From the IMG/VR virus record IMGVR_UViG_2740892441_000001: DNA of 64,000 bases. One strand, written 5' to 3'. The notes below the pieces were generated by a model. The model searched no databases. It saw only the letters and a program-made list of their open reading frames with translations, and had not been told where the DNA came from. Source of the stretch: a virus (Duplodnaviria; Heunggongvirae; Uroviricota; Caudoviricetes). This document shows positions 12,278-55,563 of the stretch, in pieces. The number at the start of each line of letters is the position of its first letter. The first letter of the stretch is position 1. Both the position numbers and the translations under genes were made by a program.

Positions 12278-12559
12278 TCACATCCAGCCACGAAGTTGAT
12301 GCTCAACAGCAACCACGTATTCATCGAATATTGACGGTGTTTTCACATCATTAATGATGCGCACGTTTACAAAATATCCGTCTTCCTTAACACATACCGG
12401 TTCGCCATCTTCAGTCAGTTCTCCGGTTTCTTTGTACACGTTACCTATCACGTCAATAAGAATATCATCCTGCATCGTCTCGTCGTCATAATAGCCAGTG
12501 CTATCCATAAAGGCCGAAAAGTCGGCCCTGTCGGCAAATTTGAGGGTTAAGTCTCGCAT
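12278..12559 (-). CDS. hypothetical protein in tail-fibre cluster
   Basis: 93-aa ORF between two tail-fibre genes. Confidence 0.3.
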   Translation of the reverse strand: MRDLTLKFADRADFSAFMDSTGYYDDETMQDDILIDVIGNVYKETGELTEDGEPVCVKEDGYFVNVRIINDVKTPSIFDEYVVAVEHQLRGWM

Positions 12560-13662
12560 TATATTTTTTCTCCCTGCTGCGCTGCTGTTAATTCCCTGTG
12601 CCAGATACGCAAATTTCGGACGTGCCCGAACAGATGGCGGCTGCCACTGGACGCCTTTCCACCGATAGTGATGAATCCACCAGTGTACTTCTGATTTTGA
12701 TATGCTGAAGTTGTCAATGCCCCGAAAACACCATTGACAACAACTTGCAACCTTCTGTCTTCCGAAAATAAAAAACCAACGATATTATGGCGCTTAGTTC
12801 TTGCAAGAGTACTATTATACTCTTTAATGGCATTTGAGTCGCCGTTTGTGATTATCGCTTTATTACCACGAGTAGCAAAACCAAGGTACATATAACTTTG
12901 ATTTATTATATCTGTGGAATCTCCCGTTGTTGTTATATCCAGAATCCTTGCTCCACCAGTAATATTAGGCATAAAGCCAGGTTCCCATAGTGTATTTACT
13001 TCAACAAGACAACTTATTGCAGGAGTTGACCAGTTTAATTTTACAGGGACAGTAACCATATCACTGGCTCTTGTTGCACCAGTTCCCGACGTAATGATAA
13101 ATGATGACGCATGAGTTCCCTTTTCAAACTGAGGGGTGGTCATCATTATCTGGTCTCCGGCCTGTATGGAACGCCCGTCCGCAGCTATCTCAAAACGAGC
13201 GTGAATACTTTTCGGTTCTGGTGATTTATATGTAAATTCGATGCGTAACCATCCGTTAGCTTCTCTGTATATGACATGATTGACAGCATCCTCACCATTC
13301 GGAATTTTTAATATTTCTCCGGTGCCGCAATCTATATATGACTCAGCAACCAGTGTGTTGCTTGTTCCGTCATCGTTCACATAAGCTACGCGAGGTCTGA
13401 TTAATATATCAGTCCCTTTAACACGGCACGAAAGTGTAACTGATTCATTTGCATCAACACTGATTACACGGGGATAACCACTCGTAATTAATGTCGCCCG
13501 GCCATCCAACGGAGTTCCCGTAACCGTGAATGTTCCATATGTAAACCCATACCCGTCAGTTTCACTAGTCACCGATAATGCAGATTTCAGATAATTCCAT
13601 AAGGATGGTGTATTACTATAATAAAGTGTGTTTGTTCTCTGCCCCTCTATTAACAACCCCAT
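12559..13662 (-). CDS. tail fibre / receptor-binding candidate
   Basis: 367-aa Thr/Ser/Gly-rich beta-type ORF within tail-fibre cluster. Confidence 0.45.
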   Translation of the reverse strand: MGLLIEGQRTNTLYYSNTPSLWNYLKSALSVTSETDGYGFTYGTFTVTGTPLDGRATLITSGYPRVISVDANESVTLSCRVKGTDILIRPRVAYVNDDGTSNTLVAESYIDCGTGEILKIPNGEDAVNHVIYREANGWLRIEFTYKSPEPKSIHARFEIAADGRSIQAGDQIMMTTPQFEKGTHASSFIITSGTGATRASDMVTVPVKLNWSTPAISCLVEVNTLWEPGFMPNITGGARILDITTTGDSTDIINQSYMYLGFATRGNKAIITNGDSNAIKEYNSTLARTKRHNIVGFLFSEDRRLQVVVNGVFGALTTSAYQNQKYTGGFITIGGKASSGSRHLFGHVRNLRIWHRELTAAQQGEKI

Positions 13663-14942
13663 TTTTTCAAATCTGGTTCATCTACAGACGCCACACAAAG
13701 CCCCCCGGATTTATCAATATATGTCGCTTCAGATGCCCGCTTAAACTTAACAATCTTGTCGCCAGGCATTGTTATTTCATCATCACCAATAACAATCTTT
13801 TTATATGATGGCGAAAAGCCCGTAATCATATCCAGTGAATCGTTAAACGGTATCCACACATCAGGCAACGGCTGTAAGACATATTTATACGGCTCCGCAG
13901 CCTGGCTTGCATACTCTCTGGCTGCGTCTTCACTTGCTTTTGCAGCGGTCTGGCTTGCTGCCGATGCTTGCGCCGAGTTCGCAGCCGCAGTCTCGCTCGC
14001 CTTTGCGTTGGTTTCACTGGTTTTTGCAGCTTTTTGACTGTTGGCTGATGCAGTGGCAGAAGCCGCCGCCTCACTTGCAGAACTGGCTGCGGCACTCTCA
14101 CTTTGGGCCGCTGCATCCTGACTGTTTTTCGCCGCAGTTTCGCTGGCTTTGGCATTTGTTTCGCTGGTCTTCGCTGCCGTCTGGCTGGACTTTGCGTTAG
14201 TTTCACTCGTCTTCGCAGCTTTCTGGCTGTTAGCCGCAGCAGTTGCTGATCCGGCAGCTGAAGTCGCAGAACCGGCAGCGGCACTCTCGCTTTCGGCTGC
14301 CGCCGCCTGGCTGTTTTTTGCTGCGGTAGCGGAGTTGGCGGCAGCACTCTGACTCGATTTTGCAGCTACCTCGCTATTTTTCGCATTAGTTTCGCTGGTC
14401 TTTGAAGCTGTCTCACTCGCTTTTGAGTTAGTTTCTGATTTTTTGGCCGCTGTTGCGCTCGCTGCCGCCTCTTTAGCTTTTTGTGCAGCGGTGTTAATTA
14501 TGGGAGTATTTTCTTTATACCATTCTAGGTTCTCATTGTGCTCATTAACGATCTGCGTAAGGGATTTTACGGTTAATTCCGTGCCATCTTCACGCTCAAT
14601 TGTTATTTCATCCACGGCAGTCAGCCAACTACGCATCATTTTTGAATCGGCTGACATGCGAGACATAAGCGCAGTAAAACGAGCACTAAATTGGGTCAAA
14701 TCACCTTCATAGGTCGTAATTATTCTGCACGGAACATTTGTTTGGGTGCTGCCACCGTAGGCTTCAACAAGAGTTAACGAAGTGTCACTCTCGATTGATT
14801 TTATTTCATATAACTTATTATCGGGGCCAATCAATATCATACCTGGAAGGACGCCGTTCGCCGTCACTCCCCAGGCTGTGCCTGTTCCCACTACAGTTTT
14901 ATTTCCTTTAGTGAGATTTATTGTACCTTCCCTGTACCACAT
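13650..14942 (-). CDS. tail fibre protein with Ala/Ser/Thr-rich tandem repeats
   Basis: 430-aa ORF; repeated SETNAK / AAKNSQ peptide units; globular C-terminal domain. Confidence 0.55.
   Translation of the reverse strand: MWYREGTINLTKGNKTVVGTGTAWGVTANGVLPGMILIGPDNKLYEIKSIESDTSLTLVEAYGGSTQTNVPCRIITTYEGDLTQFSARFTALMSRMSADSKMMRSWLTAVDEITIEREDGTELTVKSLTQIVNEHNENLEWYKENTPIINTAAQKAKEAAASATAAKKSETNSKASETASKTSETNAKNSEVAAKSSQSAAANSATAAKNSQAAAAESESAAAGSATSAAGSATAAANSQKAAKTSETNAKSSQTAAKTSETNAKASETAAKNSQDAAAQSESAAASSASEAAASATASANSQKAAKTSETNAKASETAAANSAQASAASQTAAKASEDAAREYASQAAEPYKYVLQPLPDVWIPFNDSLDMITGFSPSYKKIVIGDDEITMPGDKIVKFKRASEATYIDKSGGLCVASVDEPDLKKWGC
13880..14470. repeat. tandem nucleotide repeats encoding the Ala-rich fibre shaft
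   Basis: Repeated units such as gcagtttcgctggctttgg and gcagccgcctcactt visible on plus strand. Confidence 0.6.
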
Positions 14943-15035: not shown

Positions 15036-18000
15036 TCAAAGCCGACCAATCCTAACTCGAAGGACATTATTGTCATCATAAACGTCAATCCTCTGACCAT
15101 TTATAACCAATCTCCCATTGCCGCCACTATTGCCGTTGATCTCAAGCGTTCCATTTTTACCAAATCGCCATCCGGCTCGTCCGCTTACGAAGTTTGTTGA
15201 TTGCAAGTCACCTACCTTTGCATTTGTGATAGTACCATCCTTAATATACGCACCATTCATGTATGCAACGCTGTTTTCGATAACAAATGGTGTGGTGATC
15301 TTTCCGTTAACTGAGTTGACTAGACCAAATCGATCTGCTTGCACCAAAAACTGGGAAAGCCCCGTGGTGTCAATTCCAAGCGCAATACCTGCGACATATT
15401 TTTGCCCACCACTTGTTGACGTTTCCATCTTCAACGTCCACGCGGTTGAAACCTTTTTGTTAGTATCAGCAATAGCAGTTGCCTGCTCTTGAATTGTCGC
15501 TGTATTTCCATCAACTGATGCTTTTAAGGTGTCAATTCGTCCACTTAGAGCATTGTCGGCGTTTGTGCGCACAGTCGCCTCAGACGTAATCGCGGCATTA
15601 ATATCTTTGCTCGTTTGCGCCTGTAGATTAGTGATACTAGAAGCCAAAGCCGAATCAGCGTCAGTTCTGGCTTTCGTCTCTTCTGCTACAGCCGCCTTAA
15701 TATCTTTACCCGTCTGGCTCTTCAATGTGGTTATCTGTTGTGCTAAAGATTCATCAGCAGTTGCTCGGGCAATTTTTTCTTCAGATATAGCTGCACTAAT
15801 ATCGCCTTCAATTTTGGCTTGTAACGATAGTATTTCTTTTGAAAGTGCTTCATCGGCACTAGCTCGTGCCTCTTGTTCACTCACAATTGCGGCAGAAATA
15901 TCATCGTTAATCTTTGATTCAAGTTTGGTGATTCTGCTTGCAATAGCATTATCAGCATCTACACGAGCCGTTGTTTCTTCAGTGATTGAAGCTCTGATAT
16001 CCTCATTTATTTCAGCGCGAATTTCTTCCATTTTCGTAGCCATTGCAGACATATCGTCTGCAAAAGCCTTCTGAGTTGTGGTGATCTTCGCATTACTCAC
16101 CATCTGCTTGTGCTGATCTTCATCCTGACGCAAAGCAAGATCGATGTTTGTTTTAGCCAATGCCTCAATGTTTGTTGTCACTTCGGCACTGGAACGCTCA
16201 ACTTCAGCCACGGTTTTTTTCATTTCTTCAATGGTGGCTAAACTGCTATCTACAGTTGACTTCATCGCCTCGATTTCTTTCGCGTTTGCCAAGTCACCCT
16301 CAACTCGTGCTTCACGTTCCTCCGCGATTAAAGCCGATGAATTGCCAAGTGCTGCATTTGCCGCCTCAACAGCTCCAGCTACAGCTTTGCCCTGCTCTGA
16401 TACAGTTTCCTGCAACTGAATTAAAGCAGCGTTAGAGTTTTCAACTTCCTTAAGAGCGTCTTCCACCTTGCTTACAGTACTGGAAACATCCGTTTTAAGA
16501 TCGTTTTGAGCTTCTTCAAGCCGCCGATCTGTCTCTGTAAACTTGTCATCAAGCTTTTCAGACTTTCATCCATCTGTTCATAGATGGAATCCACCGCCTC
16601 CTGAGATACTTTTGAGTCGATTTCCTCAAGTAAAGCCTGGCCAAGTTCAGAAGACGTAATTTTGCCTGTCAGGAACGACAGTACATCGCGAGTTGTCGCC
16701 TCTGTCCCCAAGTTTGAGTTCGGATGACTTAACATACCTCGCTTGTTCGACGCTCGAACCCAGTAATACCACGTTTCGCTATCCCCAAGACCAGCATGTG
16801 TAAAGGTGGTGCTTGCAGACTCTGCGATCAGTTTCGCTGTATCCAGATTGTTGGTCTGGGATGCGTAAACATTAATGTGATCAAGGTCTACCGAATCTGG
16901 ATTAACCCAATTCAGTATCACATTACGATAGTCTCCAACGGCCGTTAATGACGTTGGGGCATCTGGCGGTGTCATTGTGCCCAGCACCTGATAAACGGTA
17001 CTGATAATCTCTGTTTTTTTACCGTTGAATGAAACCGCATACAACTGGAAGTCGTAGCGTCCATTCTCCGCAACATTAACGATTTCGTATTGCTCTTCGG
17101 TTACACGCGCCGATTGCCAGTTCGATACATTGTTTTCATCAGAACGTCGCCAACTGATCCAATACTCTGGAGATTTCCCTTCCCATGTTGCAGTCAGTTT
17201 TACTGACAGGTTGCCAGGGCTTGAGAGATAAGTCCCTTCGGTGATTTGCAAATTAGACGGCTTGGAGTAAGTCGGGTCCAATACCGTCGTATTCTGCGGG
17301 ATAAGCGTTGCACCATTGTCGATTGCCTCATATTTAGACGGATTGTTCTCAACAGCGGTGATGTCAAAGCTACCCGGCGTTTCCCCCTGCGCGATGTTAA
17401 CGATGCGAACGCGCATAGGTTCGAGATCTGGTTCTGTAATTGTCCAGACACCGTTCAAAACAGGCGTTTCCGCTGACGACAGGGCTTTTGAAAACGTAAC
17501 CTTTGTTATGTTTTCGCCAGTTTCAAGAACATCGCGTTCAACGATTTTGCCTTCCTGATTCAGTATTCGAATAAAGCAGCCGCCTTTGGCTAACGACACA
17601 GGCGCATCGAGTGTGATGCTGTTTTTGGTAAACTCCACAATTCGACCGGAGTTGCGCTTTCCTGCGCGATATTTGTTCTGAATCAGAACGGTTTCACCAG
17701 GCATCAGGAATGACGCATCTAAGCCGGCAGTAAATGTAATTACATCCGACTCCATTCTGGCGGTATATAAAAGCCACAAACCAACTCGGTGAGCCTGCCC
17801 TCGGCTTGTACAGCCAAATGCTACGACTTCTGTCTTACGCTCACCATAACGGCGCATTGCGTCCTGATCTTCAACGTACTCGATGTTTTGCTTATAACCG
17901 TCCTCCTTGTTGTTGTAGGTTACGAGCGCAACGGATGGGCGATCTTTACGCGCAGAACCTTTATAGGTAAACAATCCATCTTTGACGTTAGAGTTGGTAA

Positions 18001-19201
18001 ACATCATTACCGGATCTGATGGGCTATCCTGCATGATGTTAACCATCCCACCAGCCCAAAACACCATGCCGCGGAATGCTCCAGCAATATCCTGAATTAG
18101 TCGGTATGCGTCCTGTCGACTGGTAATCTGCGTATTGATTGCAAAACGTTTCTCTTTGCCACCAAAGCCATCATCAACCTCTTCGTCACAATATCGACCG
18201 ATCTGGTACAGCTGGCCGAGGTCAATCATGGACTCTGATACAAATTGGCCAAGCCATATCGTTCATTCGTTAACAGGTCGAAAAGAATCCAGGCTGGATT
18301 GGATGAAGACAACAGCTTAAAAGTGCCATCCCATACACCATCATAAGTGTTGCTGGCCTCGTTGTAGTTTGACGGCACGCGAATTTTTAATCCACGCACC
18401 AAATACGAACGAGATGGCATGGTGCTGCCGAATTGCTCAGAGTTTACCTTCAATCCAACTAAAACAGAGTTTGGATAGTTCATCGGTGTATCGACAATTT
18501 CCCCGATTGAATCCACCCATGTATCGTTATAGAGATACTGGCTACTGTTATCATCGGTAATACGGACTACACGAACCTTGTATGCGCGTCCAGGCTTAGG
18601 CAGCTTCAGCTCGTAGCTACGGTAATAAACACCTGTCTTCTTTGCAGTTAGCTTAATGCCAACGCTTTTTTCACCTTCTGCGACCACATCTACAAATGTT
18701 GAGTCGCCATTTGCTATCTGGAACTTGTACTCAACGGTTGTACCGTTCGTGTCACCAGTTTTTTTTATCTATGCTTCGCAAAGAAGGAAACTTCATGATG
18801 ACACGAACCCGATCAGCTTCATCGTTATCGATTGAAACCGTTACATAATGCGTTTTTTTTAACTGGATATTGACGGATTTAGGCGTTTCAACGAAATCAA
18901 AGCCAGACATTGGAGTCTGGTCTTGCGAACCGTCGCGAAAATCCCATGTGATTCCGCTGAAGTTGGAGGAACCGTCTTCATTTACAATCGGCAGATCGTC
19001 GATAAAAATAGATCTTGCGCCATTTACCAAGCCGCCAATTACACCTTCCCCAAGAAGATCGAGGATAGCGGCCATTGCACGAGAATTTACGGTATCGTCG
19101 GCTTCAACCGGTGTACGGCTAGAGCTTTTGCTGCTTTTTTTACCACCCGCACCTGCAATAAACAGCGGTAACTTTTTCTTCTTGAACTGTTCCATGTTCA
19201 A
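15036..19201 (-). pseudogene. host-specificity protein J-like central tail fibre, reading frame interrupted at three positions
   Basis: ORFs 18752-19201, 18226-18687, 16472-18229 and 15036-16466 are collinear with a lambda J-type protein (SEQFGS, RYG, YCD..DGFGG, GCTSRGQAHR, YVAGI..LSQFLV) but lie in three different frames. Confidence 0.7.
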
Positions 19202-19213
19202 AAAAATCCTTGT

Positions 19214-19807
19214 TTACATTAGCTGGTCAATCGTGATTGAAGAACTCACAACCTGTGAGCCAACCAGAATTTCCTCGCCATAGATAAGTTGTACTGGGTT
19301 GCCCTGGTTTTCTGTATTTTGAGGGCCGTCGAAATAATAAGAGTTCGAGTTATCTGCCTGTCTCACACTTTCGTTAGTGGCTTGCGGCGATATGATTTGT
19401 GATATACCGCCCATCATCAGTGACAAACCGAGAGGTGCTAAAGCAGGCATCATTACCGCCGATACAACCAACAAAGCGGCCCCTACTACCGTCTGAAACC
19501 ACCCAAAAGCAGATCCGCCGCTCCCTCGCGGAACAGGGGTAATGCGTATTTTGGCAATGTTGTCAGACTGCCCCATCATCTGATATTCACTCTCGTCCAC
19601 AGACCACTTGTGACCCTGTTTATTGGTGATCTGGATGTGGTATCTGTCATAGGTTTTGATGTTGCGCTTCATCCATGCTTTAAACCCAGGCTTGTTAGCC
19701 TCAATTAAATCCAGAGCCTGTTTTGTATTACGCACCTTTAGATGCCAGTGGCGGCCAAAATGTTTGGCCATAGGGCCGCCAAGCTGCACATGAACTAACT
19801 CAGACAC
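19214..19807 (-). CDS. tail assembly protein I-like
   Basis: 197-aa ORF between K-like and J-like genes; hydrophobic central segment. Confidence 0.5.
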   Translation of the reverse strand: MSELVHVQLGGPMAKHFGRHWHLKVRNTKQALDLIEANKPGFKAWMKRNIKTYDRYHIQITNKQGHKWSVDESEYQMMGQSDNIAKIRITPVPRGSGGSAFGWFQTVVGAALLVVSAVMMPALAPLGLSLMMGGISQIISPQATNESVRQADNSNSYYFDGPQNTENQGNPVQLIYGEEILVGSQVVSSSITIDQLM

Positions 19808-20619
19808 GTCTCATCTCCCTTGAGCAAGTCTCTGTGACGCAAGTGATGCGTCGTATGTTTCTGATACATTCCGCCGTAATAAGCACGACAACTAAGGCGG
19901 TCGATCTGGTGATGAAGAATCATTCCATCGCCGATATAAACCGCGCAGTGGTCAGGCATTTTCCCGTATTGGATAAAGAAGATGTCCCCACGTTGAGGTT
20001 CTGTTCCGGGCGCAAGCCGTACCAATCCTTCGTTTCTGTAGTTCTGATCGAGAATGTCGTTATCGCCGGTGTACCACGATGGAATATGCAGGTGTGCGTT
20101 CGGGTTTAGTTCGACGTTAAACTCACGCTTCAAATAGTCCCGACACAACATCCAGCAATCGAATACGCCAAATACATACGGTCTGCCCAGGTATGGCATT
20201 TCGAAACCATCAGGTGTGATCACATTCATCTCGCTAAAATGGAAAGGGGCATCTCCCTCAACATTCTTGCGAATAGCCAGAATCATCCACGGAACTTCCG
20301 TCGCTTCGCAGCCTGCACGATCGGCATCAGATGCTTCTGCTGATTCATCAGTATGTGAATGCCAGATTGCGATAACATCACCCGCATCCTCTGCCGCCAT
20401 AATGTCGTCAACGTGCATTACAAAAGTGTTCTGCGGGTTCTCCGAAACATTCCGCGCTTCCATAAAGCGATATTTGTCGCCATTAGTTCTAACCAGAAAG
20501 CCACACGCTTCATTAGGGTAGCGATTTATGGCGCAGAGATAGATTTGCTGCATAACGTCAGAGCCAAGCTCAGGGATTGCTTTATTACCCATACCGCGTA
20601 GCTCCAATAAATCCGCCAA
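19795..20619 (-). CDS. tail assembly protein K-like (MPN/JAMM + NlpC/P60)
   Basis: 274-aa ORF; JAMM-like HSHTDESAEASD motif; Cys/His C-terminal domain; lambda-like synteny. Confidence 0.6.
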   Translation of the reverse strand: MADLLELRGMGNKAIPELGSDVMQQIYLCAINRYPNEACGFLVRTNGDKYRFMEARNVSENPQNTFVMHVDDIMAAEDAGDVIAIWHSHTDESAEASDADRAGCEATEVPWMILAIRKNVEGDAPFHFSEMNVITPDGFEMPYLGRPYVFGVFDCWMLCRDYLKREFNVELNPNAHLHIPSWYTGDNDILDQNYRNEGLVRLAPGTEPQRGDIFFIQYGKMPDHCAVYIGDGMILHHQIDRLSCRAYYGGMYQKHTTHHLRHRDLLKGDETCLS

Positions 20620-33253: not shown

Positions 33254-34827
33254 TCACTCGTTCTCTTGAGTAGATGAGTCCCCATTCCCTCGGGGTTGAT
33301 CTTGCCCGCTTTCTTGGGCTGCGTCTTGATCATAAGTAAGTACTGACTTATTTTCAAGGGTATTTAGATCATTTTTTGGCGGAAAATTCAAGAGATCTTT
33401 ATCAAATTCCTTCTTCATCGCCTCAGTGATGTTCGGGAAAATCTTCTCAATCAGCATTTCCATCTGGTGACGACGTACAGAGTCCGGTGCCTGAAGTAAC
33501 GACAGTTTCTCGGCAACAGAAAATTCATCAGTAAGGCCACGAATATCGAAACTTTCTGGATACGCAATTAAAGAGTGGTCTTCGTCCAGATCTACCCCCA
33601 TCCATTTCGCAACCAGTAGCATGATTTGGCGTTCAGCCTTTCCAGACGCTCTGCTTTTGTGACAAGCAAGCTATTTACACGCTGGAAGTCATACATTTTT
33701 GCGGCACCAGATGAGTTATCGATTCCCTGTGCGTTGTCCTGCTTCGTTCGCTCACCAGCTACACCAACTGAATGGTAGATTTCGTTAATCACCGTCTTAA
33801 TCGTAGTGATGATCATCTGAGCTTGTTTCGGGTCTGGTGACAGATAAAACGGCTGGTTTCCACCTTCAGAATCGTAGGTGAAGACTCGCTTTGTGCCCAT
33901 TTCAAGCACTTTAGTGTGGTTTTCATCACCAGGTAAAAGCGACTGTACCGGTATAGCCAACTGGCTAAATGTCTGATCCTGAATAATGGCATCAAGGTTT
34001 GACAGATAGTTTGCAACCGCACGATCAAGATAAGCGATATCATCGATCAACGATGGGCTGAAATACGGTGATTCACTTTCTCCAATACAATCAACAGGAA
34101 ACACAGGAACTACGCCGAGATTATGCTCACCGCTATCCTCTAAAATAACTTTTGCCTGACGGCGACCTGCTCCACCAGCGCCCTTCTTCACTTCCTCACG
34201 GAACAGATACCACTCGTTTTGTGTCCACAGACGATAACGTTGGTATTCCTGACCTGTAGAAGTAAAAGGATCTGCGTCATCACGAGCGACTTCCACAATT
34301 AACGCCCACAACATATTCCCGTCGTCGTCCCATGCCACATCCAGCATTTGCTGAGGTGAAATCCAGTAGGCGTAGGCGCGAGCATCTTTCTTTTTCTCGT
34401 CAGCTACTGACTCAACATCACCACTCATCGTGCTATCGACAACAACCCATATGCGACCGTAAATAGACGACTGCAAATCAATAGCGGCCATAAATGAGTC
34501 AATAGAGGCATTCTGGCGGGTCGCACGTTTCCAGAAATTGCGGATCTGCTCTGGTGCCTCTTCGATATTTCTATGAATGTCTTCTTTAAAGAGATATTTG
34601 TTGATGAGGTTTACCACCTCACGAGTGTGGTTGAAGCGATAAGCACGCTCAACTCGCTCCTTAAACTCCTGATCTCCCTCTTTAAAGTAACGAAAGATAT
34701 TGTCTGTAAACCAACCACGCCCGCCAGCGTAAGTGCTGGCGAGGAAGTCCCAATGTTCTTTTTTCTTTTCGTATTCCGGGTGGCGTCGCGCCACCAGATC
34801 CTTAATTTGTTTGTCGTTCAATTCCAT
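33254..34827 (-). pseudogene. portal protein, reading frame interrupted near codon 410
   Basis: ORFs 33592-34827 and 33254-33622 overlap by 31 nt in different frames and read as one protein with an acidic C-terminal tail. Confidence 0.55.
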
Positions 34828-38105: not shown

Positions 38106-38767
38106 GAATGGACCTCATCATAACTACCATTGTGATATTCCACCTTCACGCGTTCTTTGTAGTGCTTGGTGATCTGCATATCCGGGCGCAGCGCGTTCTT
38201 CAGGTCTTCGTGAGTCGTCGCCACCATTACCGTCGCACCAACCTTTCGAGCGGCACGCTGGAGGTTAGATGCCACAACCTGAGCGGTTACACGGTCTAGA
38301 ACAGCACCGAACTCGTCAGCAGCCCACACTTTAGCGCCTGACTCAATCAGTTTGGCAATCTTGAGACGATATTTCTGACCGTCTGACATTTCAGAAGGCT
38401 TGCGAACAAACAGATATGCATCGTTCAGACCTGCCATAGATAACAACCCAAGCGCATCACTGGTAGTTTTGCCCAGTTGGTCAATGACGTTAACCTCATT
38501 ATCGAAGGTAAAGTCATCAATAGAAGCTACAGAAAGCCCTTCATCCTTCATCTGGCGTTGCAACTCGCGCAACACAACGGATTTACCTGAACCGGATTGG
38601 CCGGTGATGTACACCACATCGCCCTGCTTCACTTCCAGCTCCAGATTGTCGTAAAGCGTCCACTCTTTTTCGTCCAGGCCAAGCCCGAACGACTCAGCGA
38701 TTTCCAACGTGCGCGTGGTTTTATTTACGCGTGTCTGAAACGATACGTTGATGATGTATTTGCTCAT
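38102..38767 (-). CDS. ABC-type ATPase
   Basis: 221-aa ORF; Walker A GQSGSGKS, signature-like SDGQKYR, Walker B VWAADEF, H-loop TTHE. Confidence 0.6.
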   Translation of the reverse strand: MSKYIINVSFQTRVNKTTRTLEIAESFGLGLDEKEWTLYDNLELEVKQGDVVYITGQSGSGKSVVLRELQRQMKDEGLSVASIDDFTFDNEVNVIDQLGKTTSDALGLLSMAGLNDAYLFVRKPSEMSDGQKYRLKIAKLIESGAKVWAADEFGAVLDRVTAQVVASNLQRAARKVGATVMVATTHEDLKNALRPDMQITKHYKERVKVEYHNGSYDEVHS

Positions 38768-39465
38768 GCAGCCATCTCCCCGGAAGAGATCTTCTCCGCA
38801 TATGCCACAAATGCGTCTACCCCGCTTTCTCCCGTCATTTCTTCCATGTGGGCAAGCAAATCACCAACAACAATGGCAGAGCCAGCAGGGAGCGTTTTAA
38901 AGCCCAATACGTCGATAACACGTACTTCTTCCGCTGCAACTTCACGACTGATCTCGGTGTGTTCATCCTTCTGTCGTTTAGTTTCTTCGCCCAGATCGAT
39001 AACTAGCGAGTCGGTGTCCATTTCTTCTGTCATGCTGCCAACGAGAACATTCAACTCCCGCTCTTCAAAGCCGAAAACCTCGATATCGTCCAGAACAAGC
39101 GACTCAAGTTCTTTCTGTAGCTTAATTGCATCGTAATCAATGCTGGCAAGTCGGTTATCTTCAAGGCGCTTCGCACGAACCTCGTCATCACTGAGATCAT
39201 CGCGAACAATAACCGGTACGCGCTCAAGTCCAGCAAAAATTGCAGCCTCACGGCGGCCGTGGCCAGTAATAATTACGTCGTTCTTATCGACCGTAATTGG
39301 CTGGTCAAATCCGCGCTTTTTAATGGCTGCGGCCAGATCTCGGATCTGCTGTTCATCATGCTTTTTGGCATTCATCTCATAGGGAATAAGATCTGCCGGG
39401 TCGCGATATACGATTTCAAACTTTTTGGTCATTACATACACTCCTTGTAGTAGTCGACCAGCCAC
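38764..39465 (-). CDS. ParB/Srx-fold domain protein
   Basis: 233-aa ORF; ITGHGRREAA motif typical of ParB N-terminal domain. Confidence 0.5.
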   Translation of the reverse strand: MAGRLLQGVYVMTKKFEIVYRDPADLIPYEMNAKKHDEQQIRDLAAAIKKRGFDQPITVDKNDVIITGHGRREAAIFAGLERVPVIVRDDLSDDEVRAKRLEDNRLASIDYDAIKLQKELESLVLDDIEVFGFEERELNVLVGSMTEEMDTDSLVIDLGEETKRQKDEHTEISREVAAEEVRVIDVLGFKTLPAGSAIVVGDLLAHMEEMTGESGVDAFVAYAEKISSGEMAA

Positions 39466-40112
39466 ACCAGAGCCTCACCAGCGTTCTCCATTTCATTACC
39501 GGTGTTAATAGCCTGCTCTTTGATGATGTTTTTTATGGTTTCTGCAACACGATCTGACGCATCGAAAGTTACTTTGAAGCGCATGGTCTGATGTTCCGCA
39601 CCCACACGTTCGGTTTTCTCTCGTTTGTCGGTATCGACAGGCTCATCACTACCACGAGACAACGCCTCCAGTGCTTCAAGGTCGATTGCCGCCTCTTTTG
39701 CTAAAACCATCGAGATTTCGTCGTCATACGGGGCGATTTCAGACAGTTGATAGTCAAGTTCTGACTGAATTTCTTCAATGAAGCGTTGCAATGCGATTTG
39801 GTCGTCTTCACCGTATCGCTCGTTGTCCACTAGTGACATCTGTTTAGCTACGACATCGCTAATTTTGCCCACAGAAAGCACCGGAACCGTTGAAATTCCT
39901 TGCTCAATAGCAGCACGCCAGCGATGTTCGCCGCCGAGGATTTCAAAAAATCCATCTTCAAGTTCACGAGCCAAAATTGGCTTAAAAAAGCCCAATTTTT
40001 CGATAGAACCTTTCAGTTTTTCAAAATTCTGCGCACCAACCGAATTGGTGTTCCAGGTATTCGGGCGAAGGTTGGCAACATCAACCTGCAAAATCGTGAT
40101 TTTTACATCCAT
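39432..40112 (-). CDS. ParB/Srx-fold domain protein
   Basis: 226-aa ORF; ILGGEHRWRAA motif. Confidence 0.5.
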   Translation of the reverse strand: MDVKITILQVDVANLRPNTWNTNSVGAQNFEKLKGSIEKLGFFKPILARELEDGFFEILGGEHRWRAAIEQGISTVPVLSVGKISDVVAKQMSLVDNERYGEDDQIALQRFIEEIQSELDYQLSEIAPYDDEISMVLAKEAAIDLEALEALSRGSDEPVDTDKREKTERVGAEHQTMRFKVTFDASDRVAETIKNIIKEQAINTGNEMENAGEALVWLVDYYKECM

Positions 40113-40194
40113 TTTATTGCTACAATCAACTAAGTAATTACTTACTTATTATAATAGCCAAATAACATACAAAAGGCACTAAGGAAAGAGGTTT

Positions 40195-41754
40195 ATGACT
40201 GTTCGGATTGTATCTAACGCAGTAAATGCGCTTATTTCTGGCGCAGATGACAAGGTAAAGCAACTGGTGCAACAGATGTTGAGCTACGAAGTCGAGACTG
40301 GCGACTGGAAAGGCACAAGCACGATGTTCAACTGGAGTAAAAACTCGTTCCCTGCTGGCTTTGCCAAGCCTGTAGCGGCGAACTTGAACAAGGCGGGCAT
40401 CAAATGTGTTCATATCCGCAAAGACAAAGCCCCGGCGCTTGGAAAGCCAAATCCGGCGGTTAACCCATTCCCATACAATCCTGATTATGCGTATCAGGAT
40501 CAGACTGTGGAAACGCTAGTTCGCGAGGGAATGATGATTGCGCAGATCGCTACTGGTGGCGGAAAATCTAATGTTGCCTGCAAAGCAGCTGCACGTATCG
40601 GTCGAATGACATTATTTTTAACAACCCGCTCTGTTCTGATGTTTCAGATGGCCGAAAACTTCCAGAGATCCATCGACTACCGCGCCGAAAATGGCGAACC
40701 GTGGTTAAAAGACCAAAAGGTTGGAGTAATTGGCTCGGGTGAGTTCCAGGTATCGCGACATATCAACGTTGCTACAGTTCAAACTCTTGCAAGTTTCCTC
40801 GAAGAACCACCACGCGATGCAACACCAGATAAGAAAAGCTACCACCTCAAACGTCGGGAGTTGGTGAAACGCTTCCTTTCAAGTGTCTCTCTTCTTATTC
40901 TGGAAGAGGCGCATGAGTCTTCAGGCTCTAATTTCTATGACATTGCCAGATTATGTGCGAACGCAGACTATCGCCTGGCGCTTACGGCAACGCCGTTCAT
41001 GAAGGATTCTACGGAAGCCAACATGCGTCTGATGGCTGTGGCCGGGCGAATTGAAATAAAAGTCACGGAAAAGTACCTGATTGATAAAGGCATTCTGGCA
41101 AAGCCATACTTCCTTTATCATAAAGTTGCCTACAAACCGGACGAGGTCAGAATCAAGGCAGAACTTGCTAACAAACACCTCAATTTTAGAGTAGGTATGA
41201 GCACTGCCTACCAAAAGGCTTATCAGTTGGGGATCGTGTATAATTTGGGACGTAACGAGGCCATTGTGCGCGAAGCATTGCTCTATAAGCAACACTCTCT
41301 CAACTGCATGACTCTGGTTCGTCTTAAACGCCACGGGCAAATCCTGATGGAGATGATGAAGGAGTCCGGTCTTAGAGTTGACTTCATCTATGGGGAATCG
41401 AACCAGGCGACAAGGCAAGCAAAGCTGAACAGTTTAGCGTCTGGTGAAATAGATGTTTTAATAGGCTCGACTATTCTGGATGTCGGTGTTGATGTGCCAA
41501 GCGTTGGTGCGGTCATTCTTGCTGGTGGCGGGAAAGCAGAAGTTGAAATGAGACAACGTGTCGGTCGTGGCTTACGAGCCAAGAAGAATCAGGCAAACGT
41601 GTGTTTTATCACTGATTTCATTGACATTAGCAACAAATACCTGTTGTCTCACTCTTATGAGCGAAAACACATCATCGACACTACACCTGGCTTTGCAGAA
41701 GGTGTATTGCCTATTGATGGCGCATTCGATTTTGGAGTTCTGAAACGAGATTAG
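40195..41754 (+). CDS. superfamily 2 helicase (DEAH-type)
   Basis: 519-aa ORF; motif I ATGGGKSN, motif II LEEAHE, motif III LTATP, motif VI QRVGRGLR. Confidence 0.7.
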   Translation: MTVRIVSNAVNALISGADDKVKQLVQQMLSYEVETGDWKGTSTMFNWSKNSFPAGFAKPVAANLNKAGIKCVHIRKDKAPALGKPNPAVNPFPYNPDYAYQDQTVETLVREGMMIAQIATGGGKSNVACKAAARIGRMTLFLTTRSVLMFQMAENFQRSIDYRAENGEPWLKDQKVGVIGSGEFQVSRHINVATVQTLASFLEEPPRDATPDKKSYHLKRRELVKRFLSSVSLLILEEAHESSGSNFYDIARLCANADYRLALTATPFMKDSTEANMRLMAVAGRIEIKVTEKYLIDKGILAKPYFLYHKVAYKPDEVRIKAELANKHLNFRVGMSTAYQKAYQLGIVYNLGRNEAIVREALLYKQHSLNCMTLVRLKRHGQILMEMMKESGLRVDFIYGESNQATRQAKLNSLASGEIDVLIGSTILDVGVDVPSVGAVILAGGGKAEVEMRQRVGRGLRAKKNQANVCFITDFIDISNKYLLSHSYERKHIIDTTPGFAEGVLPIDGAFDFGVLKRD

Positions 41755-41756
41755 TT

Positions 41757-42035
41757 ATGAGCGAAAAGAAAACAACTTATTGTCAGGTAGCATTGACTGA
41801 TAAGGCCAATGACAAACTGGGAAAATTTCAAATGAAACTAAAAGAAAAAAACATCAAAATGTCCAAGGCTGAAGTTATCAATACCATTCTGGAGACGATG
41901 ACGATGGCTGAATTTGACAAGGTTTCATCTGCCGTTGGCGTCTCTGCTAAGGCTCGTGAAAAAATCATGCGCATCTATGAGAACTCTAATATGACAAAGG
42001 AAGACCTAGAACAAATTCTAAGCAAACTGCCATAA
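41757..42035 (+). CDS. hypothetical small protein
   Basis: 92-aa ORF coupled to helicase stop. Confidence 0.4.
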   Translation: MSEKKTTYCQVALTDKANDKLGKFQMKLKEKNIKMSKAEVINTILETMTMAEFDKVSSAVGVSAKAREKIMRIYENSNMTKEDLEQILSKLP

Positions 42036-42287
42036 CATTTCACATTCCCTCCATCCGCCAATTCCAAGATGTGCTTACTTGTAAAAGGAGCACATCAATT
42101 GATGTGGCAGAGAATGAATTTAATCAAGACAAACATTGAATGATTAATAGACTACGATAGTGTCCAACAGGGCATTCTCATGTGACATTTGTCACATTTT
42201 TAACCGCATAAGTCTCCGGCTGAAAAAAGTTCTTGATTGGCTGAATGATATTTGTAGGCTTATCAATGTTTAGAGCCGGAGGTGTGA

Positions 42288-42830
42288 ATGGGTGTACTTG
42301 ACATTGATAGTAATTACTTAAGTGCAAGGCGAATAAAGGAATGTGTTCATATCTATTGTAAATCAAAGCAGTCTTGTTTAGAAAAGCAGGCGTACCTAAC
42401 ATCTTCTCAAAAAGGAGAGCACAAACTCATCAAATATAAACTAAAGGCTTCGCGCAAAGATCGTTATGAGCACTATATATATGTAAAGGATATTGAAGGC
42501 ACCAAGACAAATTGCGGTATTATCTTTTATCCCTATGATATATCAAGACTGTTCTCCATTATGAAATCCTGTGTCGGCGTAGCTCCAGGTAAATTAGAGT
42601 TGCATTCAAACTTATACGATTACCCAAATGCTCAAAAACAGATAAACGATAGCACTTCGCCCTATGGATTTTCGTTTCTCTTTAAGAATCATCTCGCATT
42701 GAAAGATTTCATCGAAAAATACAATGAAGGAATAATATCAGGCGAATTAAATTTCAACAAAATCTGCGGAGATATAAAAAGGGACGACCTCTTAATAGAT
42801 ATTTACAATAGAATCCAAGTTAACGTGTAA
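42288..42830 (+). CDS. hypothetical protein (AT-rich island)
   Basis: 180-aa ORF, Lys/Ile/Asn-rich. Confidence 0.4.
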   Translation: MGVLDIDSNYLSARRIKECVHIYCKSKQSCLEKQAYLTSSQKGEHKLIKYKLKASRKDRYEHYIYVKDIEGTKTNCGIIFYPYDISRLFSIMKSCVGVAPGKLELHSNLYDYPNAQKQINDSTSPYGFSFLFKNHLALKDFIEKYNEGIISGELNFNKICGDIKRDDLLIDIYNRIQVNV

Positions 42831-52271: not shown

Positions 52272-54305
52272 TTACTTAACCTGGTGGCCAGGTTTAGCAC
52301 CAGCATCCGGGCTTAACAGGAAGATGTCTTTCCCGCCGGGGCCAGCAGCCATCACCATGCCTTCGGAGATACCGAAACGCATTTTACGCGGAGCCAGGTT
52401 AGCCACCATAATGGTGTGACGGCCAATCAGTGCCTGTGGGTCTGGATAAGCGGAACGGATGCCTGAGAAGACATTGCGTTTTTCACCGCCGAGATCCAGC
52501 GTCAGGCGCAGCAGTTTGTCAGAACCTTCAACAAAGTCTGCGTTTTCGATCAGCGCCACGCGCAGGTCAACTTTGGCAAAGTCGTCAAAGGTGATGGTTT
52601 CCTGAATCGGGTCGTCTGCCAGCGGGCCAGTAACTGGCGCGGCAGTAGCTTTCACTTCTTCTTTAGACGCTTCCACCAATGCTTCCACCTGTTTCATGTC
52701 GATACGGTTATACAGTGCTTTGAACGGATTCACTTTATGGCCCAGCAGCGGTTGCTGGATACCATCCCAGGTCAGTTCTGTATTCAGGAATGCTTCTGCA
52801 CGTTCAGTCAGTTTCGGCAGTACCGGCTTCAGGTACGTCATCAGCACGCGGAACAGGTTAATGCCCATAGAGCAAATCGCCTGCAGATCGGCATCGCGTC
52901 CTTCCTGCTTCGCCACCACCCACGGAGCCTGTTCATCGACATAGCGGTTAGCCAGGTCAGCCAATGCCATGATTTCACGGATAGCTTTACCAAATTCGCG
53001 GCTTTCCCATGCTTCGCCAATCACTTCAGCGGCATCAGTAAAGGTTTTGTACAGTTGCGAGTCAGCCAGTTCGCTTGCCAGCACGCCGTCAAAACGCTTG
53101 TTGATAAAGCCTGCATTACGGGAGGCCAGGTTAACCACTTTGTTCACGATATCGGCATTCACGCGCTGAACGAAATCCTCCAGGTTGAGATCGATATCAT
53201 CAATGCGCGAAGAGAGTTTCGCAGTGTAGTAGTAACGCAGGCTGTCGGCGTCAAAATGATTCATCCAGGTGCTGGCTTTAATAAAGGTGCCGCGAGACTT
53301 GGACATCTTCGCGCCGTTCACCGTCACATAGCCGTGAACAAACAGGTTGGTCGGCTTGCGGAAGTTGCTGCCTTCCAGCATGGCAGGCCAGAACAGGCTG
53401 TGGAAGTAAACGATATCTTTACCGATGAAGTGGTACAGCTCGGCGGTGGAGTCTTTCTTCCAGTATTCATCGAAGCTGGTAGTGTCGCCGCGCTTGTCGC
53501 ACAGATTCTTGAAGGAACCCATGTAGCCAATCGGTGCGTCCAGCCAGACGTAGAAATATTTACCCGGCGCGTTCGGAATTTCAAAACCGAAGTAAGGTGC
53601 GTCGCGGGAGATATCCCACTGTTGCAGACCAGATTCAAACCACTCCTGCATTTTGTTTGCCACCTGCTCCTGCAACGCACCGCTGCGGGTCCATGCCTGC
53701 AACATTTCGCTGAAAGAGGGCAGATCAAAGAAGAAGTGTTCAGAATCACGCATTACCGGCGTAGCGCCAGAAACTACCGATTTCGGCTCAATCAGTTCAG
53801 TCGGGCTGTAGGTCGCGCCGCAAACTTCACAGTTATCGCCGTATTGATCTGGCGCTTTACATTTCGGACAGGTGCCTTTCACAAAACGATCCGGCAGGAA
53901 CATGCCTTTTTCCGGGTCGTACAACTGAGAGATAGTGCGGTTTTTAATAAAACCGTTCTCTTTCAGGCGAGTATAGATAAGCTCAGACAGCTGGCGGTTC
54001 TCTTCGCTGTGCGTCGAGTGATAGTTGTCATAGCTGATGTTAAAGCCTGCGAAATCAGTCTGGTGTTCCTGGCTCATTTCGCCAATCATCTGTTCCGGTG
54101 TGATACCAAGCTGCTGTGCTTTCAGCATGATCGGCGTACCGTGGGCATCGTCGGCGCAGATGAAGTTGACCTCGTGGCCGCGCATTCGCTGGTAACGGAC
54201 CCAGACATCAGCCTGGATGTGCTCCAGCATATGGCCGAGGTGGATTGAGCCGTTAGCGTACGGCAGCGCGCACGTCACCAGAATTTTCTTCGCGACTTGG
54301 GTCAT
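52272..54305 (-). CDS. metG: methionine--tRNA ligase
   Basis: 677-aa protein from [25 protein letters not shown] (HLGH, KMSKS motifs, C-terminal tRNA-binding domain); matches E. coli MetG as I recall it; the 43-codon N-terminal extension in the ORF track is rejected. Confidence 0.95.
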
Positions 54306-54462
54306 AGTAGGCATTACTTCTTTGTAGTGAAAAGGGGCTTGATAGTAACAAAATGGCCTTATGTCTGCCATGTGATAACAGCATTTCTCATAAATGATTA
54401 AATGTCGTAGCTGGAGTACACTACAAGGCGACAATTGCGCAAATTAAAATAAAGGAGACGGG

Positions 54463-55563
54463 ATGAGCGAGTCCAAATCGCCGGATGCCCTGAGAGCAAT
54501 GGTAGCCGGTACGCTGGCTAATTTTCAGCACCCAACCCTGAAGCACAACCTGACTACGCTTAAAGCGTTACACCATGTTGCGTTGATGGATGACACACTG
54601 CATGTCGAACTAATCATGCCTTTCGTGTGGAATAAGCCTTTTGAAGACCTGAAAGAGCAATGTAGTGGTGATCTGCTCCGTATCACTGGCGCAAAGGCTA
54701 TCGACTGGAAGCTGTCGTACAACATTGCCACGCTTAAGCGCGTCAAAAACCAACCAGGCATTAATGGCGTTAAGAACATCATCGCCGTCAGCTCAGGCAA
54801 GGGCGGTGTAGGCAAATCGTCCACAGCAGTAAACTTGGCACTGGCGTTGGCTGCTGAAGGTGCGAAAGTTGGTATTTTGGATGCCGATATCTACGGTCCA
54901 TCAATTCCAACCATGCTGGGTGCGGAAAACCAACGTCCAACCTCACCGGACGGTACTCACATGGCACCTATCATGTCTCATGGCCTGGCAACCAACTCTA
55001 TTGGTTATCTGGTCACCGACGACAATGCAATGGTGTGGCGTGGACCGATGGCCAGCAAGGCGTTAATGCAGATGTTGCAGGAAACTCTATGGCCTGATCT
55101 GGACTATCTCGTTCTCGATATGCCGCCGGGCACTGGTGATATTCAATTGACGCTGGCGCAGAACATTCCTGTAACTGGTGCTGTTGTGGTAACTACGCCG
55201 CAAGATATCGCGCTGATCGATGCGAAGAAAGGCATTGTGATGTTCGAAAAAGTCGAAGTGCCGGTACTGGGTATCGTCGAAAACATGAGTGTGCATATTT
55301 GCAGTAACTGCGGTCATCACGAGCCAATTTTTGGCACCGGTGGCGCACAGAAGCTGGCCGAGAAATACAACACGCAGTTGTTAGGCCAAATGCCACTTCA
55401 TATCTCTCTTCGTGAAGATCTGGATAACGGAACACCAACCGTTATTAGTCGTCCAGATAGCGAATTTACGGCTATTTATCGTGACCTCGCAGATCGCGTT
55501 GCTGCCCAAATGTATTGGCAAGGTGAAGTAATACCTGGCGAAATCGCATTCCGCGCAGTGTGA
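54463..55563 (+). CDS. apbC: Fe-S cluster carrier ATPase ApbC/Mrp
   Basis: 366-aa ORF; deviant Walker A SGKGGVGKSS; CxxC motif; divergent from metG as in enterobacterial chromosomes. Confidence 0.95.
   Translation: MSESKSPDALRAMVAGTLANFQHPTLKHNLTTLKALHHVALMDDTLHVELIMPFVWNKPFEDLKEQCSGDLLRITGAKAIDWKLSYNIATLKRVKNQPGINGVKNIIAVSSGKGGVGKSSTAVNLALALAAEGAKVGILDADIYGPSIPTMLGAENQRPTSPDGTHMAPIMSHGLATNSIGYLVTDDNAMVWRGPMASKALMQMLQETLWPDLDYLVLDMPPGTGDIQLTLAQNIPVTGAVVVTTPQDIALIDAKKGIVMFEKVEVPVLGIVENMSVHICSNCGHHEPIFGTGGAQKLAEKYNTQLLGQMPLHISLREDLDNGTPTVISRPDSEFTAIYRDLADRVAAQMYWQGEVIPGEIAFRAV

What the first reader, a model, noticed from the sequence alone, without database searches (positions are those of the whole stretch)
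15036..19201. J-like central tail fibre gene broken into four ORFs by three single-base frame changes
The four ORFs are collinear with a lambda J-type protein but sit in three frames. The first break is in a T8 run at about 18759-18766; removing one base fuses ..SIDKK to TGDTNGTTVEYKF... The second, near 18226-18231, and the third, near 16563-16567, each need one added base. Opposite indel directions at short homopolymers argue for sequencing or assembly error rather than programmed frameshifting; true pseudogenisation of a decaying prophage is the alternative.
Basis: seen in the sequence. Interest (0 to 1): 0.55.

Follow-up and report, generated by a model that had tools for sequence, protein, structure and literature searches.

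The report
Sequencing-error frameshifts in tail-tip gene J
The lambda-J-type tail-tip gene of this E. coli-group phage-plasmid looks broken into four pieces, but the three one-base breaks are almost certainly Ion Torrent sequencing errors in a 2015-era draft assembly, so the finding is ordinary.

Summary
Four minus-strand ORFs (15036-19201) in three frames together make one lambda-J-type tail-tip gene. More than 30 relatives carry it as a single 4161-nt ORF.

Alignment places the lesions at:
- an extra A in an A8 run (18759-18766; relatives have A7);
- a missing C/G at 18254 (CC against CCC);
- a missing C/G at 16553 (G against GG).

Once repaired, the gene has no internal stop, is 99.1-99.7% identical in protein to relatives, and has pN/pS of 0.03-0.05. 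No relative shares any of the three indels.

The same kind of lesion (one extra base in A/T runs of 6-7; one missing base in G/C runs of 2-3) also splits the portal, tape-measure, DNA-ligase, side-fibre and TacA antitoxin genes in this window. No real gene has a nonsense substitution.

The window is contig JUDX01000018.1 of E. coli RCE03, sequenced on Ion Torrent PGM and assembled with MIRA. Its authors state that artificial frameshifts remain in these assemblies. Published PGM systematic errors are "insertions of A/T or deletions of C/G", mostly in 2-3-mers.

It is neither programmed frameshifting nor long-term decay. Interest is low.

The parts
15036..19195 (-). Whole tip attachment protein J (TipJ / central tail fibre) gene of an SSU5/pLF82-like phage-plasmid. 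It is 4160 nt as written and 4161 nt (1386 codons plus stop) in relatives.
   Evidence: Relatives annotate one CDS here. The repaired protein has FNIII-A_GpJ, Phage-tail_3, fn3 and Phage_Tail_Tip domains and matches lambda gpJ 8iyk_J with E=7e-125.
18752..19195 (-). Fragment 1: the J N-terminus as far as the first half of the FNIII-A domain. It ends ...SIDKKNW*.
18759..18766 (-). Lesion 1: an A8 run on the gene strand (T8 on +), one base too many. All relatives have A7.
   Evidence: 18 IMG/VR and 9 metagenome matches are all the 26-nt A7 allele.
18226..18758 (-). Fragment 2: the rest of FNIII-A and the following segment. The frame is open from 18768.
18254..18255 (-). Lesion 2: one base missing. 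The window has CC on + (GG on the gene strand), where the closest relatives have CCC: TATGG-CTTGG against TATGGGCTTGG (or TATGGCCTTGG in more distant relatives).
16472..18253 (-). Fragment 3: the Phage-tail_3 hub domain and fn3 domains.
16553..16553 (-). Lesion 3: one base missing. The window has a single G on + where relatives have GG (gene strand AAAAG-CTTG against AAAAGCCTTG).
15036..16552 (-). Fragment 4: a long alpha-helical, repeat-rich shaft and the C-terminal Phage_Tail_Tip domain.
33637..33638 (-). Same lesion class outside J: CC against CCC, which splits the portal gene into 415 + 138 codons.
   Evidence: Unique among 8 relatives. No portal product is on record for this contig (L047).
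26017..26018 (-). Same lesion class: GG against GGG, which splits the tape-measure gene into 104 + 1425 codons.
2016..2017 (-). Same lesion class: GG against GGG, which cuts about 31 N-terminal codons off the ATP-dependent DNA ligase gene.
13675..13676 (-). Same lesion class: CC against CCC on the gene strand, which splits the side/spike fibre gene (12559-14942) into 430 + 367 aa.
   Evidence: Three independent assemblies have CCC, and with it the frame reads through VDEPRFEKMGLLIEGQ.
8481..8487 (+). Same lesion class: A7 against A6 (GAAAAA in relative B) at codons 5-6 of the tacA antitoxin gene, giving MSALKKAAHRFEINR*. The adjacent 173-aa GNAT toxin gene is intact.
2656..2662 (.). Same lesion class in intergenic DNA: A7 against A6. 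Further window-unique 1-base losses lie at about 9299 and about 21728 (a hairpin loop).

Best explanation
The gene is an ordinary, functional lambda-J-type tip attachment protein / central tail fibre gene of an SSU5/pLF82-like phage-plasmid. In the organism it is most likely a single 1386-codon ORF. The three frame changes are consensus errors of the Ion Torrent PGM / MIRA draft assembly the window comes from (E. coli RCE03, contig JUDX01000018.1).

The inferred mechanism is flow-space miscalling. One over-called A in an A7 run and two under-called C/G in 2-3-base runs survived into the consensus because they are systematic 'high-frequency indel' errors that coverage does not average out.

What is shown: the position and uniqueness of the lesions, selection on the repaired gene, the window-wide signature, the identity of the source record and its platform, and the published error profile. 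What is inferred: that the reads or flows miscalled at exactly these positions.
For: 1. Uniqueness. The closest relatives span 4167 bases where the window has 4166. None of the 6 close plasmids or SSU5, and none of 18 IMG/VR contigs where the site is covered, has any of the three indels. 27 of 27 environmental or viral matches at site 1 carry A7.

2. No decay. The repaired ORF has no internal stop and is 99.1-99.7% identical in protein to relatives. pN/pS is 0.03-0.05, against 0.027 between two intact relatives. There are only 3 window-unique substitutions (2 synonymous, 1 non-synonymous) beside 3 unique frameshifts. Of the 51 long ORFs of relative A projected onto the window, none that matches an annotated gene carries a nonsense substitution. 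Five unannotated ORFs (four antisense, one off-frame) do, which serves as an internal control.

3. Window-wide signature. Eleven window-unique 1-base indels occur, about 1 per 4.4 kb. All 7 G/C events are deletions in runs of 2-3, and none of the 117 G/C runs of 4 or more was hit. All 3 A/T homopolymer events are insertions in A6/A7 runs. Fisher p = 0.024. They break the portal, tape-measure, ligase, side-fibre and tacA antitoxin genes.

4. Provenance. Locus L047 (GCA_001630835.1, JUDX01000018.1) is identical to window 32288-52830 at the same coordinates. PMC5517970 gives JUDX00000000 as RCE03, sequenced on Ion Torrent PGM and assembled with MIRA 4.0. [quoted passage not shown]

5. Error profile. 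PMC3623719 reports that PGM high-frequency indels are 'most commonly insertions of A/T or deletions of C/G', and that 82% of the strand-asymmetric ones lie in homopolymers of length 2-3.
Against: - No reads were inspected, so none of the three sites is proven wrong individually.
- A7 to A8 is also the most plausible natural slippage mutation.
- J carries slightly more indels than the rest-of-window rate predicts (0.74 expected, 3 seen, P = 0.039).
- All the coding frameshifts lie in window 1-34000 and none in the conserved blocks beyond.
- Independent short-read assemblies do carry frameshifts in the neighbouring side-fibre gene, so real frameshifts occur in this element family.
- Phage-plasmids are known to degrade into plasmids.
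Confidence: 0.9

Rival explanations
1. Genuine, very recent pseudogenisation. The RCE03 phage-plasmid really carries these 1-base indels, for example after passage in a mismatch-repair-deficient host. It would then be a defective element maintained only as a plasmid, with J, portal, tape measure and other genes inactivated.
For: Phage-plasmids forming defective elements are described in the literature (abstract of PMC12977533 listed). Relatives have a pseudogenised side-fibre gene, and three short-read assemblies each carry their own frameshift in that fibre gene. All the lesions are frameshifts in phage genes that a plasmid lifestyle does not need, apart from the ligase and tacA.
Against: - There is no relaxation of selection (pN/pS 0.03-0.05) and no nonsense substitution in any real gene.
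- There are as many unique frameshifts as unique substitutions in J.
- G/C indels avoid all 117 runs of 4 or more and sit in runs of 2-3. That is the opposite of replication slippage: the probability is 0.007 to 2e-6 if the rate rises 5-10 fold per extra base, though only 0.14 at 3-fold.
- Direction depends on base type, as in PGM errors.
- The antitoxin is broken next to an intact toxin.
- The platform and the authors' own caveat explain everything.
Confidence: 0.07
2. Recoding. The gene is expressed as one protein through programmed ribosomal frameshifting and/or transcriptional slippage, for example RNA polymerase slippage on the A8 run, perhaps acting as a phase-variable switch of tail-tip production.
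For: A8 is a homopolymer on which transcriptional slippage is conceivable (established knowledge; not tested here). An A_AAA_AAC heptamer lies in the zero frame at site 1.
Against: - Site 1 needs a +1/-2 shift, not the -1 shift that heptamer would give.
- Sites 2 and 3 have no X_XXY_YYZ motif in the overlap and no homopolymer longer than 2.
- Three successive recoding events would be needed for one protein.
- No homologue has the split arrangement, whereas programmed frameshifts are conserved.
Confidence: 0.01
3. Mixed case. The two G/C deletions are artefacts, but the A7 to A8 expansion is a real polymorphism in RCE03, possibly heterogeneous among the three colonies merged into the 'meta-assembly'.
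For: A7 runs are natural slippage hotspots. The assembly merges reads from three colonies. At 19200, an A7 against A6 difference is shared with relative B and is therefore a real polymorphism.
Against: 0 of 27 environmental relatives and 0 of 7 plasmid/phage relatives have A8. Two other A6 to A7 expansions unique to the window (2656, 8481) show the same over-call pattern, one of them in an antitoxin gene.
Confidence: 0.02

Closest known systems
Bacteriophage lambda tip attachment protein J (gpJ; PDB 8IYK/8K35)
   Same: The N-terminal about 840 residues align end to end (query 19-860 against gpJ 3-836, E=7e-125). The Pfam order is the same: FNIII-A_GpJ, Phage-tail_3, fn3, then the C-terminal tip-fibre domain. 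The gene neighbourhood is also the same: tape measure, M-like, L, C40 peptidase (K-like), I-like tail assembly protein, then J, then side fibre.
   Different: It is 1386 aa against 1132 aa, with a roughly 350-residue alpha-helical, repeat-rich shaft between the fn3 region and the tip domain. As deposited, the reading frame is interrupted three times.
Intact orthologues in SSU5-like phage-plasmids (SSU5_020 AFL46947.1; WP_282502976.1 and WP_338704778.1 of E. marmotae plasmids; WP_310984888.1 of pMTY12368_pLF82)
   Same: Same gene at the same locus: 77.6% nucleotide identity to SSU5, 98.7-99.1% to the closest plasmids, and 99.5-99.7% protein identity after repair.
   Different: All of them are single uninterrupted 4158-4161-nt CDSs. 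The window differs by +1, -1 and -1 base.
Ion Torrent PGM high-frequency indel (HFI) errors (Bragg et al. 2013, PMC3623719)
   Same: Single-base events: insertions of A/T and deletions of C/G, predominantly in 2-3-base homopolymers, reproducible enough to survive into a consensus. The window shows 7/7 G/C deletions in runs of 2-3 and 3/3 A/T homopolymer insertions, and the assembly is PGM/MIRA.
   Different: The A/T insertions here are in long A6-A7 runs, where the paper says under-calls usually dominate ordinary flow errors. Strand asymmetry of the reads could not be examined.
Programmed -1 frameshift of lambda tail assembly chaperones G/GT
   Same: A frame change within a siphovirus tail gene cluster.
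   Different: The G/GT shift lies upstream of the tape measure gene, uses a conserved slippery heptamer and is conserved across phages. Here there is no slippery motif at two of the three sites, and the split is absent from all homologues.

Membership tests
TipJ / lambda gpJ tail-tip family | FNIII-A_GpJ plus Phage-tail_3 hub domains at the N-terminus | tested here: met
   The repaired protein scores FNIII-A_GpJ 1-126/126 at 103 bits and Phage-tail_3 at 123 bits. The fragments show the same domains split across ORFs.
TipJ / lambda gpJ tail-tip family | Sequence homology to structurally characterised gpJ | tested here: met
   8iyk_J E=7e-125 over residues 19-860; F2-pyocin tail fibre E=9e-157.
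TipJ / lambda gpJ tail-tip family | C-terminal tip fibre / receptor-binding domain | tested here: met
   PF09327 Phage_Tail_Tip, 143 bits, residues 1234-1368.
TipJ / lambda gpJ tail-tip family | Position after TMP-M-L-K-I in the tail module | tested here: met
   The annotation of relative L001 runs tape measure, tail protein, minor tail protein L, C40 peptidase, tail assembly protein, then TipJ. The window ORFs at 19214-21316 match these.
TipJ / lambda gpJ tail-tip family | Single uninterrupted ORF | tested here: not met
   As deposited there are four ORFs in three frames. The feature is met only after removing 1 base and adding 2.
Programmed ribosomal frameshift / recoding site | Slippery motif in the zero frame appropriate to the required shift | tested here: not met
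   There is no X_XXY_YYZ at sites 2 and 3. The heptamer at site 1 would give -1, but +1 is required.
Programmed ribosomal frameshift / recoding site | Two-frame arrangement conserved in homologues | tested here: not met
   None of the 7 plasmid/phage relatives or the 18 IMG/VR relatives has the split.
Programmed ribosomal frameshift / recoding site | Downstream stimulatory RNA structure | not tested
   Not pursued, because the two preceding features failed.
Genuine pseudogene (decaying prophage / phage-plasmid) | Relaxed selection (pN/pS approaching 1) or nonsense substitutions | tested here: not met
   pN/pS is 0.03-0.05. There are no premature stops from substitution in any real gene of the window.
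Genuine pseudogene (decaying prophage / phage-plasmid) | Lesions confirmed by accurate reads or shared by independent isolates | tested here: not met
   No independent sequence shares them. Read-level confirmation is not possible with these tools.
Ion Torrent PGM consensus indel artefact | Sequence produced on that platform | tested here: met
   The window is identical to part of JUDX01000018.1. JUDX00000000 is RCE03, sequenced on Ion Torrent PGM and assembled with MIRA 4.0.
Ion Torrent PGM consensus indel artefact | A/T insertions and C/G deletions, mostly in 2-3-mers, single base | tested here: met
   7/7 G/C deletions in runs of 2-3; 3/3 A/T homopolymer insertions; all 1 base.
Ion Torrent PGM consensus indel artefact | Lesions scattered over unrelated, selected genes and intergenic DNA alike | tested here: met
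   Ligase, fibre, J (three times), tape measure, portal, tacA and three intergenic sites.
Ion Torrent PGM consensus indel artefact | Disagreement between reads/flows, or with an accurate platform, at the sites | not testable with these tools

The most novel reading that the evidence does not exclude
The indels are real. The RCE03 element would then be a phage-plasmid caught immediately after a burst of 1-base frameshifts that simultaneously killed its tail tip, portal, tape measure, ligase and side fibre. That would be a snapshot of a phage-plasmid turning into a plain plasmid, before any other sign of decay has accumulated.
Probability: 0.06. Interest if true: 0.3.

Novelty: not a real feature. 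Interest (0 to 1): 0.06.

Why it matters
It matters mainly as quality control. This contig should not be used to infer pseudogenes, defective phage-plasmids or recoding, and gene or pseudogene counts from Ion Torrent-era drafts of this study are inflated. The same check can be reused: ask whether the lesion is unique, whether selection is intact, and whether the indel signature is window-wide. The underlying gene is a normal, well-understood J-type tail-tip protein.

Tried and rejected
- Programmed frameshifting or transcriptional slippage: rejected, because there are no suitable motifs and the split is not conserved.
- Long-term pseudogene decay: rejected by pN/pS and the absence of nonsense mutations.
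- Exact-product look-ups for the truncated ORFs: ORF3 (585 aa) and the 430-aa fibre fragment are not on record anywhere, so no independent assembly reproduces the breaks.
- I first took the 430 + 367 aa side-fibre split for a natural two-gene arrangement, because the 367-aa product exists in three other assemblies. Alignment showed that those copies are broken at different positions and all have CCC where the window has CC, so the window's break is again its own. The look-up was biased towards broken copies.
- I suspected a further lesion in a 139-aa gene missing from the L047 gene table. The gene is intact in the window, so the table is simply incomplete.
- Scans for sites 2 and 3 with two-allele patterns found nothing in genome contigs and viral contigs respectively, because of flanking polymorphism. 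They were uninformative.
- tRNA and Rfam scans of the window found nothing.
Full report
**What is there.** On the minus strand, four ORFs occupy 18752-19201, 18226-18687, 16472-18229 and 15036-16466. Stop-codon maps show they lie in frames 2, 0, 2 and 1. The junctions therefore need, in order, one base removed, one added and one added. The Pfam hits are collinear with a single J-type protein. FNIII-A_GpJ is cut in two (profile 1-44 in ORF1, 71-126 in ORF2). Phage-tail_3 and fn3 lie in ORF3, and Phage_Tail_Tip lies in ORF4.

**What the element is.** The region matches SSU5-like phage-plasmids of Escherichia, Salmonella and Klebsiella. Within E. coli complete genomes it is found only on plasmids: 231 places in 226 genomes and none on a chromosome. 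The closest records are two Escherichia marmotae plasmids at 99.0-99.1% identity. In every annotated relative the region is one CDS of 4158-4161 nt, called TipJ family phage tail tip protein, phage tail protein or host specificity protein J. It sits after the tape measure, minor tail protein L, C40 peptidase and tail assembly protein genes, and before a side-fibre gene.

**Exact lesions.** The window was aligned with three relatives, and then with two complete plasmids and 18 IMG/VR contigs. The alignments show exactly three gaps in J and no others:
- an extra A in an A8 run (18759-18766; relatives have A7);
- one base missing at 18254-18255 (CC on the + strand, against CCC);
- one base missing at 16553 (G, against GG).

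The start codon used by relatives is the ATG at 19195.

**The repaired gene.** Removing one base and adding two gives a 1386-codon ORF with no internal stop. Its junction peptides are identical to those of relatives, and its protein identity to six relatives is 99.1-99.7%. It has a full-length FNIII-A_GpJ match at 103 bits, against 30 and 50 bits for the two fragments. It aligns to lambda gpJ (8iyk_J) over residues 19-860 with E=7e-125. The 'lambda J-type' label is correct.

**Test for old decay.** pN/pS between the repaired window gene and six relatives is 0.03-0.05, indistinguishable from 0.027 between two intact relatives. The window has only three unique substitutions in J (two synonymous, one not), but three unique frameshifts. 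Window-wide, I projected the window onto 51 long ORFs of relative A with indels neutralised. No ORF that corresponds to an annotated gene has a premature stop. Five ORFs that do not correspond to annotated genes do (four antisense, one off-frame inside the fibre gene), which shows the test has power. Long-term pseudogenisation is excluded. The lesions are either very recent or not real.

**Test for shared alleles.** A pattern accepting both A7 and A8 found 18 IMG/VR and 9 metagenome contigs, all with A7. All 18 IMG/VR contigs lack the other indels wherever those sites are covered. The exact truncated products are not on record in a collection of 153 billion gene positions.

**Test for recoding.** No X_XXY_YYZ heptamer lies in the zero frame in the overlaps at sites 2 and 3. 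The A_AAA_AAC heptamer at site 1 would promote a -1 shift, whereas a +1 shift is needed. With no conservation of the split in any homologue, programmed frameshifting is rejected.

**The window-wide pattern.** Comparison with two complete relatives shows further window-unique 1-base indels in otherwise 97-99% identical DNA:

| Window position | Change | Location |
|---|---|---|
| 2016 | GG against GGG | DNA ligase |
| 2656 | A7 against A6 | intergenic |
| 8481 | A7 against A6 | tacA antitoxin, codon 6 |
| 9299 | one base lost | intergenic |
| 21728 | one base lost | hairpin loop |
| 26017 | GG against GGG | tape measure |
| 33637 | CC against CCC | portal |

The ORFs are indeed split: tape measure into 104 + 1425 codons, portal into 415 + 138, and ligase loses its N-terminus. 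The portal lesion is unique among eight relatives. The side-fibre gene is split by a CC-against-CCC difference at about 13675, relative to three independent assemblies. The tacA frameshift leaves an intact GNAT toxin beside a 15-residue antitoxin stub, an arrangement that selection should not tolerate.

In all there are eleven events, about one per 4.4 kb. All seven G/C events are deletions in runs of 2-3, and none of the 117 G/C runs of four or more is affected. All three A/T homopolymer events are insertions in runs of 6-7. The Fisher test for direction against base type gives p = 0.024. If slippage rates rise 5-10 fold per extra base, the chance that none of seven G/C indels falls in a run of four or more is 0.007 to 2e-6, though only 0.14 at 3-fold. 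This is not the spectrum of replication slippage.

**Provenance.** A look-up of an intact 180-aa protein returned contig JUDX01000018.1 of GCA_001630835.1, with the gene at record positions 42288-42830, the same as in the window. That locus is base-for-base identical to window 32288-52830. Its gene table has no portal product.

The accession belongs to E. coli RCE03 from a Crohn's disease patient (PMC5517970). The strain was sequenced on Ion Torrent PGM (318 chip, 200-bp kit) and assembled with MIRA 4.0 from reads of three colonies. [quoted passage not shown]

The reference study of PGM errors (PMC3623719) describes high-frequency indels that appear 'most commonly as insertions of A/T or deletions of C/G'. 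It also reports that 82% of the strand-asymmetric ones fall in homopolymers of length two to three and are dominated by C and G deletions. I had tabulated the signature before I identified the platform, and it fits.

**Conclusion.** The J gene is an ordinary member of a well-known family.

Several points leave residual doubt:
- No reads were examined.
- A7 to A8 is also a plausible natural mutation.
- J has slightly more hits than the rest-of-window rate predicts (0.74 expected, 3 seen, P = 0.039), although it is one of the two largest targets.
- Real frameshifts do occur in the neighbouring fibre gene in other assemblies.

The most novel reading not excluded is a phage-plasmid freshly disabled by a burst of frameshifts. 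I give that about 6%.

Noticed in passing
window 12559-14942 (-); loci L013, L014, L015: The side/spike fibre gene is split in the window by its own CC-against-CCC lesion at about 13675. Three independent assemblies with near-identical sequence (one NCBI assembly, GCA_031954565.1, and two Logan assemblies of SRA runs) are each broken at a different nearby site: a G missing at 13751 in two of them, and G5 against G6 at 13701 in the third. Relative NZ_CP124469.1 has this gene annotated as a pseudogene. The exact-product look-up is biased towards broken copies, but recurrent real inactivation of the side fibre in these phage-plasmids is possible.
   Followed up: partly
whole window; literature: The host 'E. 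coli' RCE03 is described by its authors as more distant from E. coli LF82 than E. fergusonii is. The closest plasmid relatives (99.0-99.1%) are from Escherichia marmotae. The strain is probably E. marmotae (cryptic clade V) rather than E. coli.
   Followed up: no
window 8470-9269 (+): A TacA/TacT-type toxin-antitoxin module (DUF1778 antitoxin plus GNAT acetyltransferase toxin). The antitoxin is frameshifted at codon 6 by an A6-to-A7 change while the toxin is intact. This is most likely another sequencing error, and it works as a useful internal plausibility check.
   Followed up: yes
window 52272-55563: The phage-plasmid carries full-length metG (methionine--tRNA ligase, about 680-720 aa) and apbC (iron-sulfur carrier) genes, as its relatives do. 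Against relative A, apbC shows 37 nucleotide differences and 0 amino-acid differences, and metG shows 84 and 7, so both are under very strong constraint on a mobile element.
   Followed up: no
window about 16590-16620 (gene nt about 2577-2612): A mosaic boundary inside J. Many relatives (phage Cyrano, Klebsiella phage-plasmids, 14 of 18 IMG/VR contigs) match only the first about 2580-2612 nt (hub and fn3 part) at 93-97%, then diverge in the shaft and tip part. This is consistent with exchange of host-range modules. It lies about 40-60 nt upstream of lesion 3 but is unrelated to it, because relatives that share the whole gene read straight through.
   Followed up: partly
window 19200-19206: An A7 against A6 difference just upstream of the J start codon is shared with the E. 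marmotae relative B. It is therefore a genuine polymorphism and not an error, so not every homopolymer difference in the window is an artefact.
   Followed up: yes
window 34000-64000: No frameshifting indels were detected in the conserved coding blocks of the second half of the window (for example 38135-42039 and 60264-63998 have 0 gaps). All the coding lesions lie in 1-34000. This may reflect differences in coverage or correction along the contig. It is unexplained.
   Followed up: no
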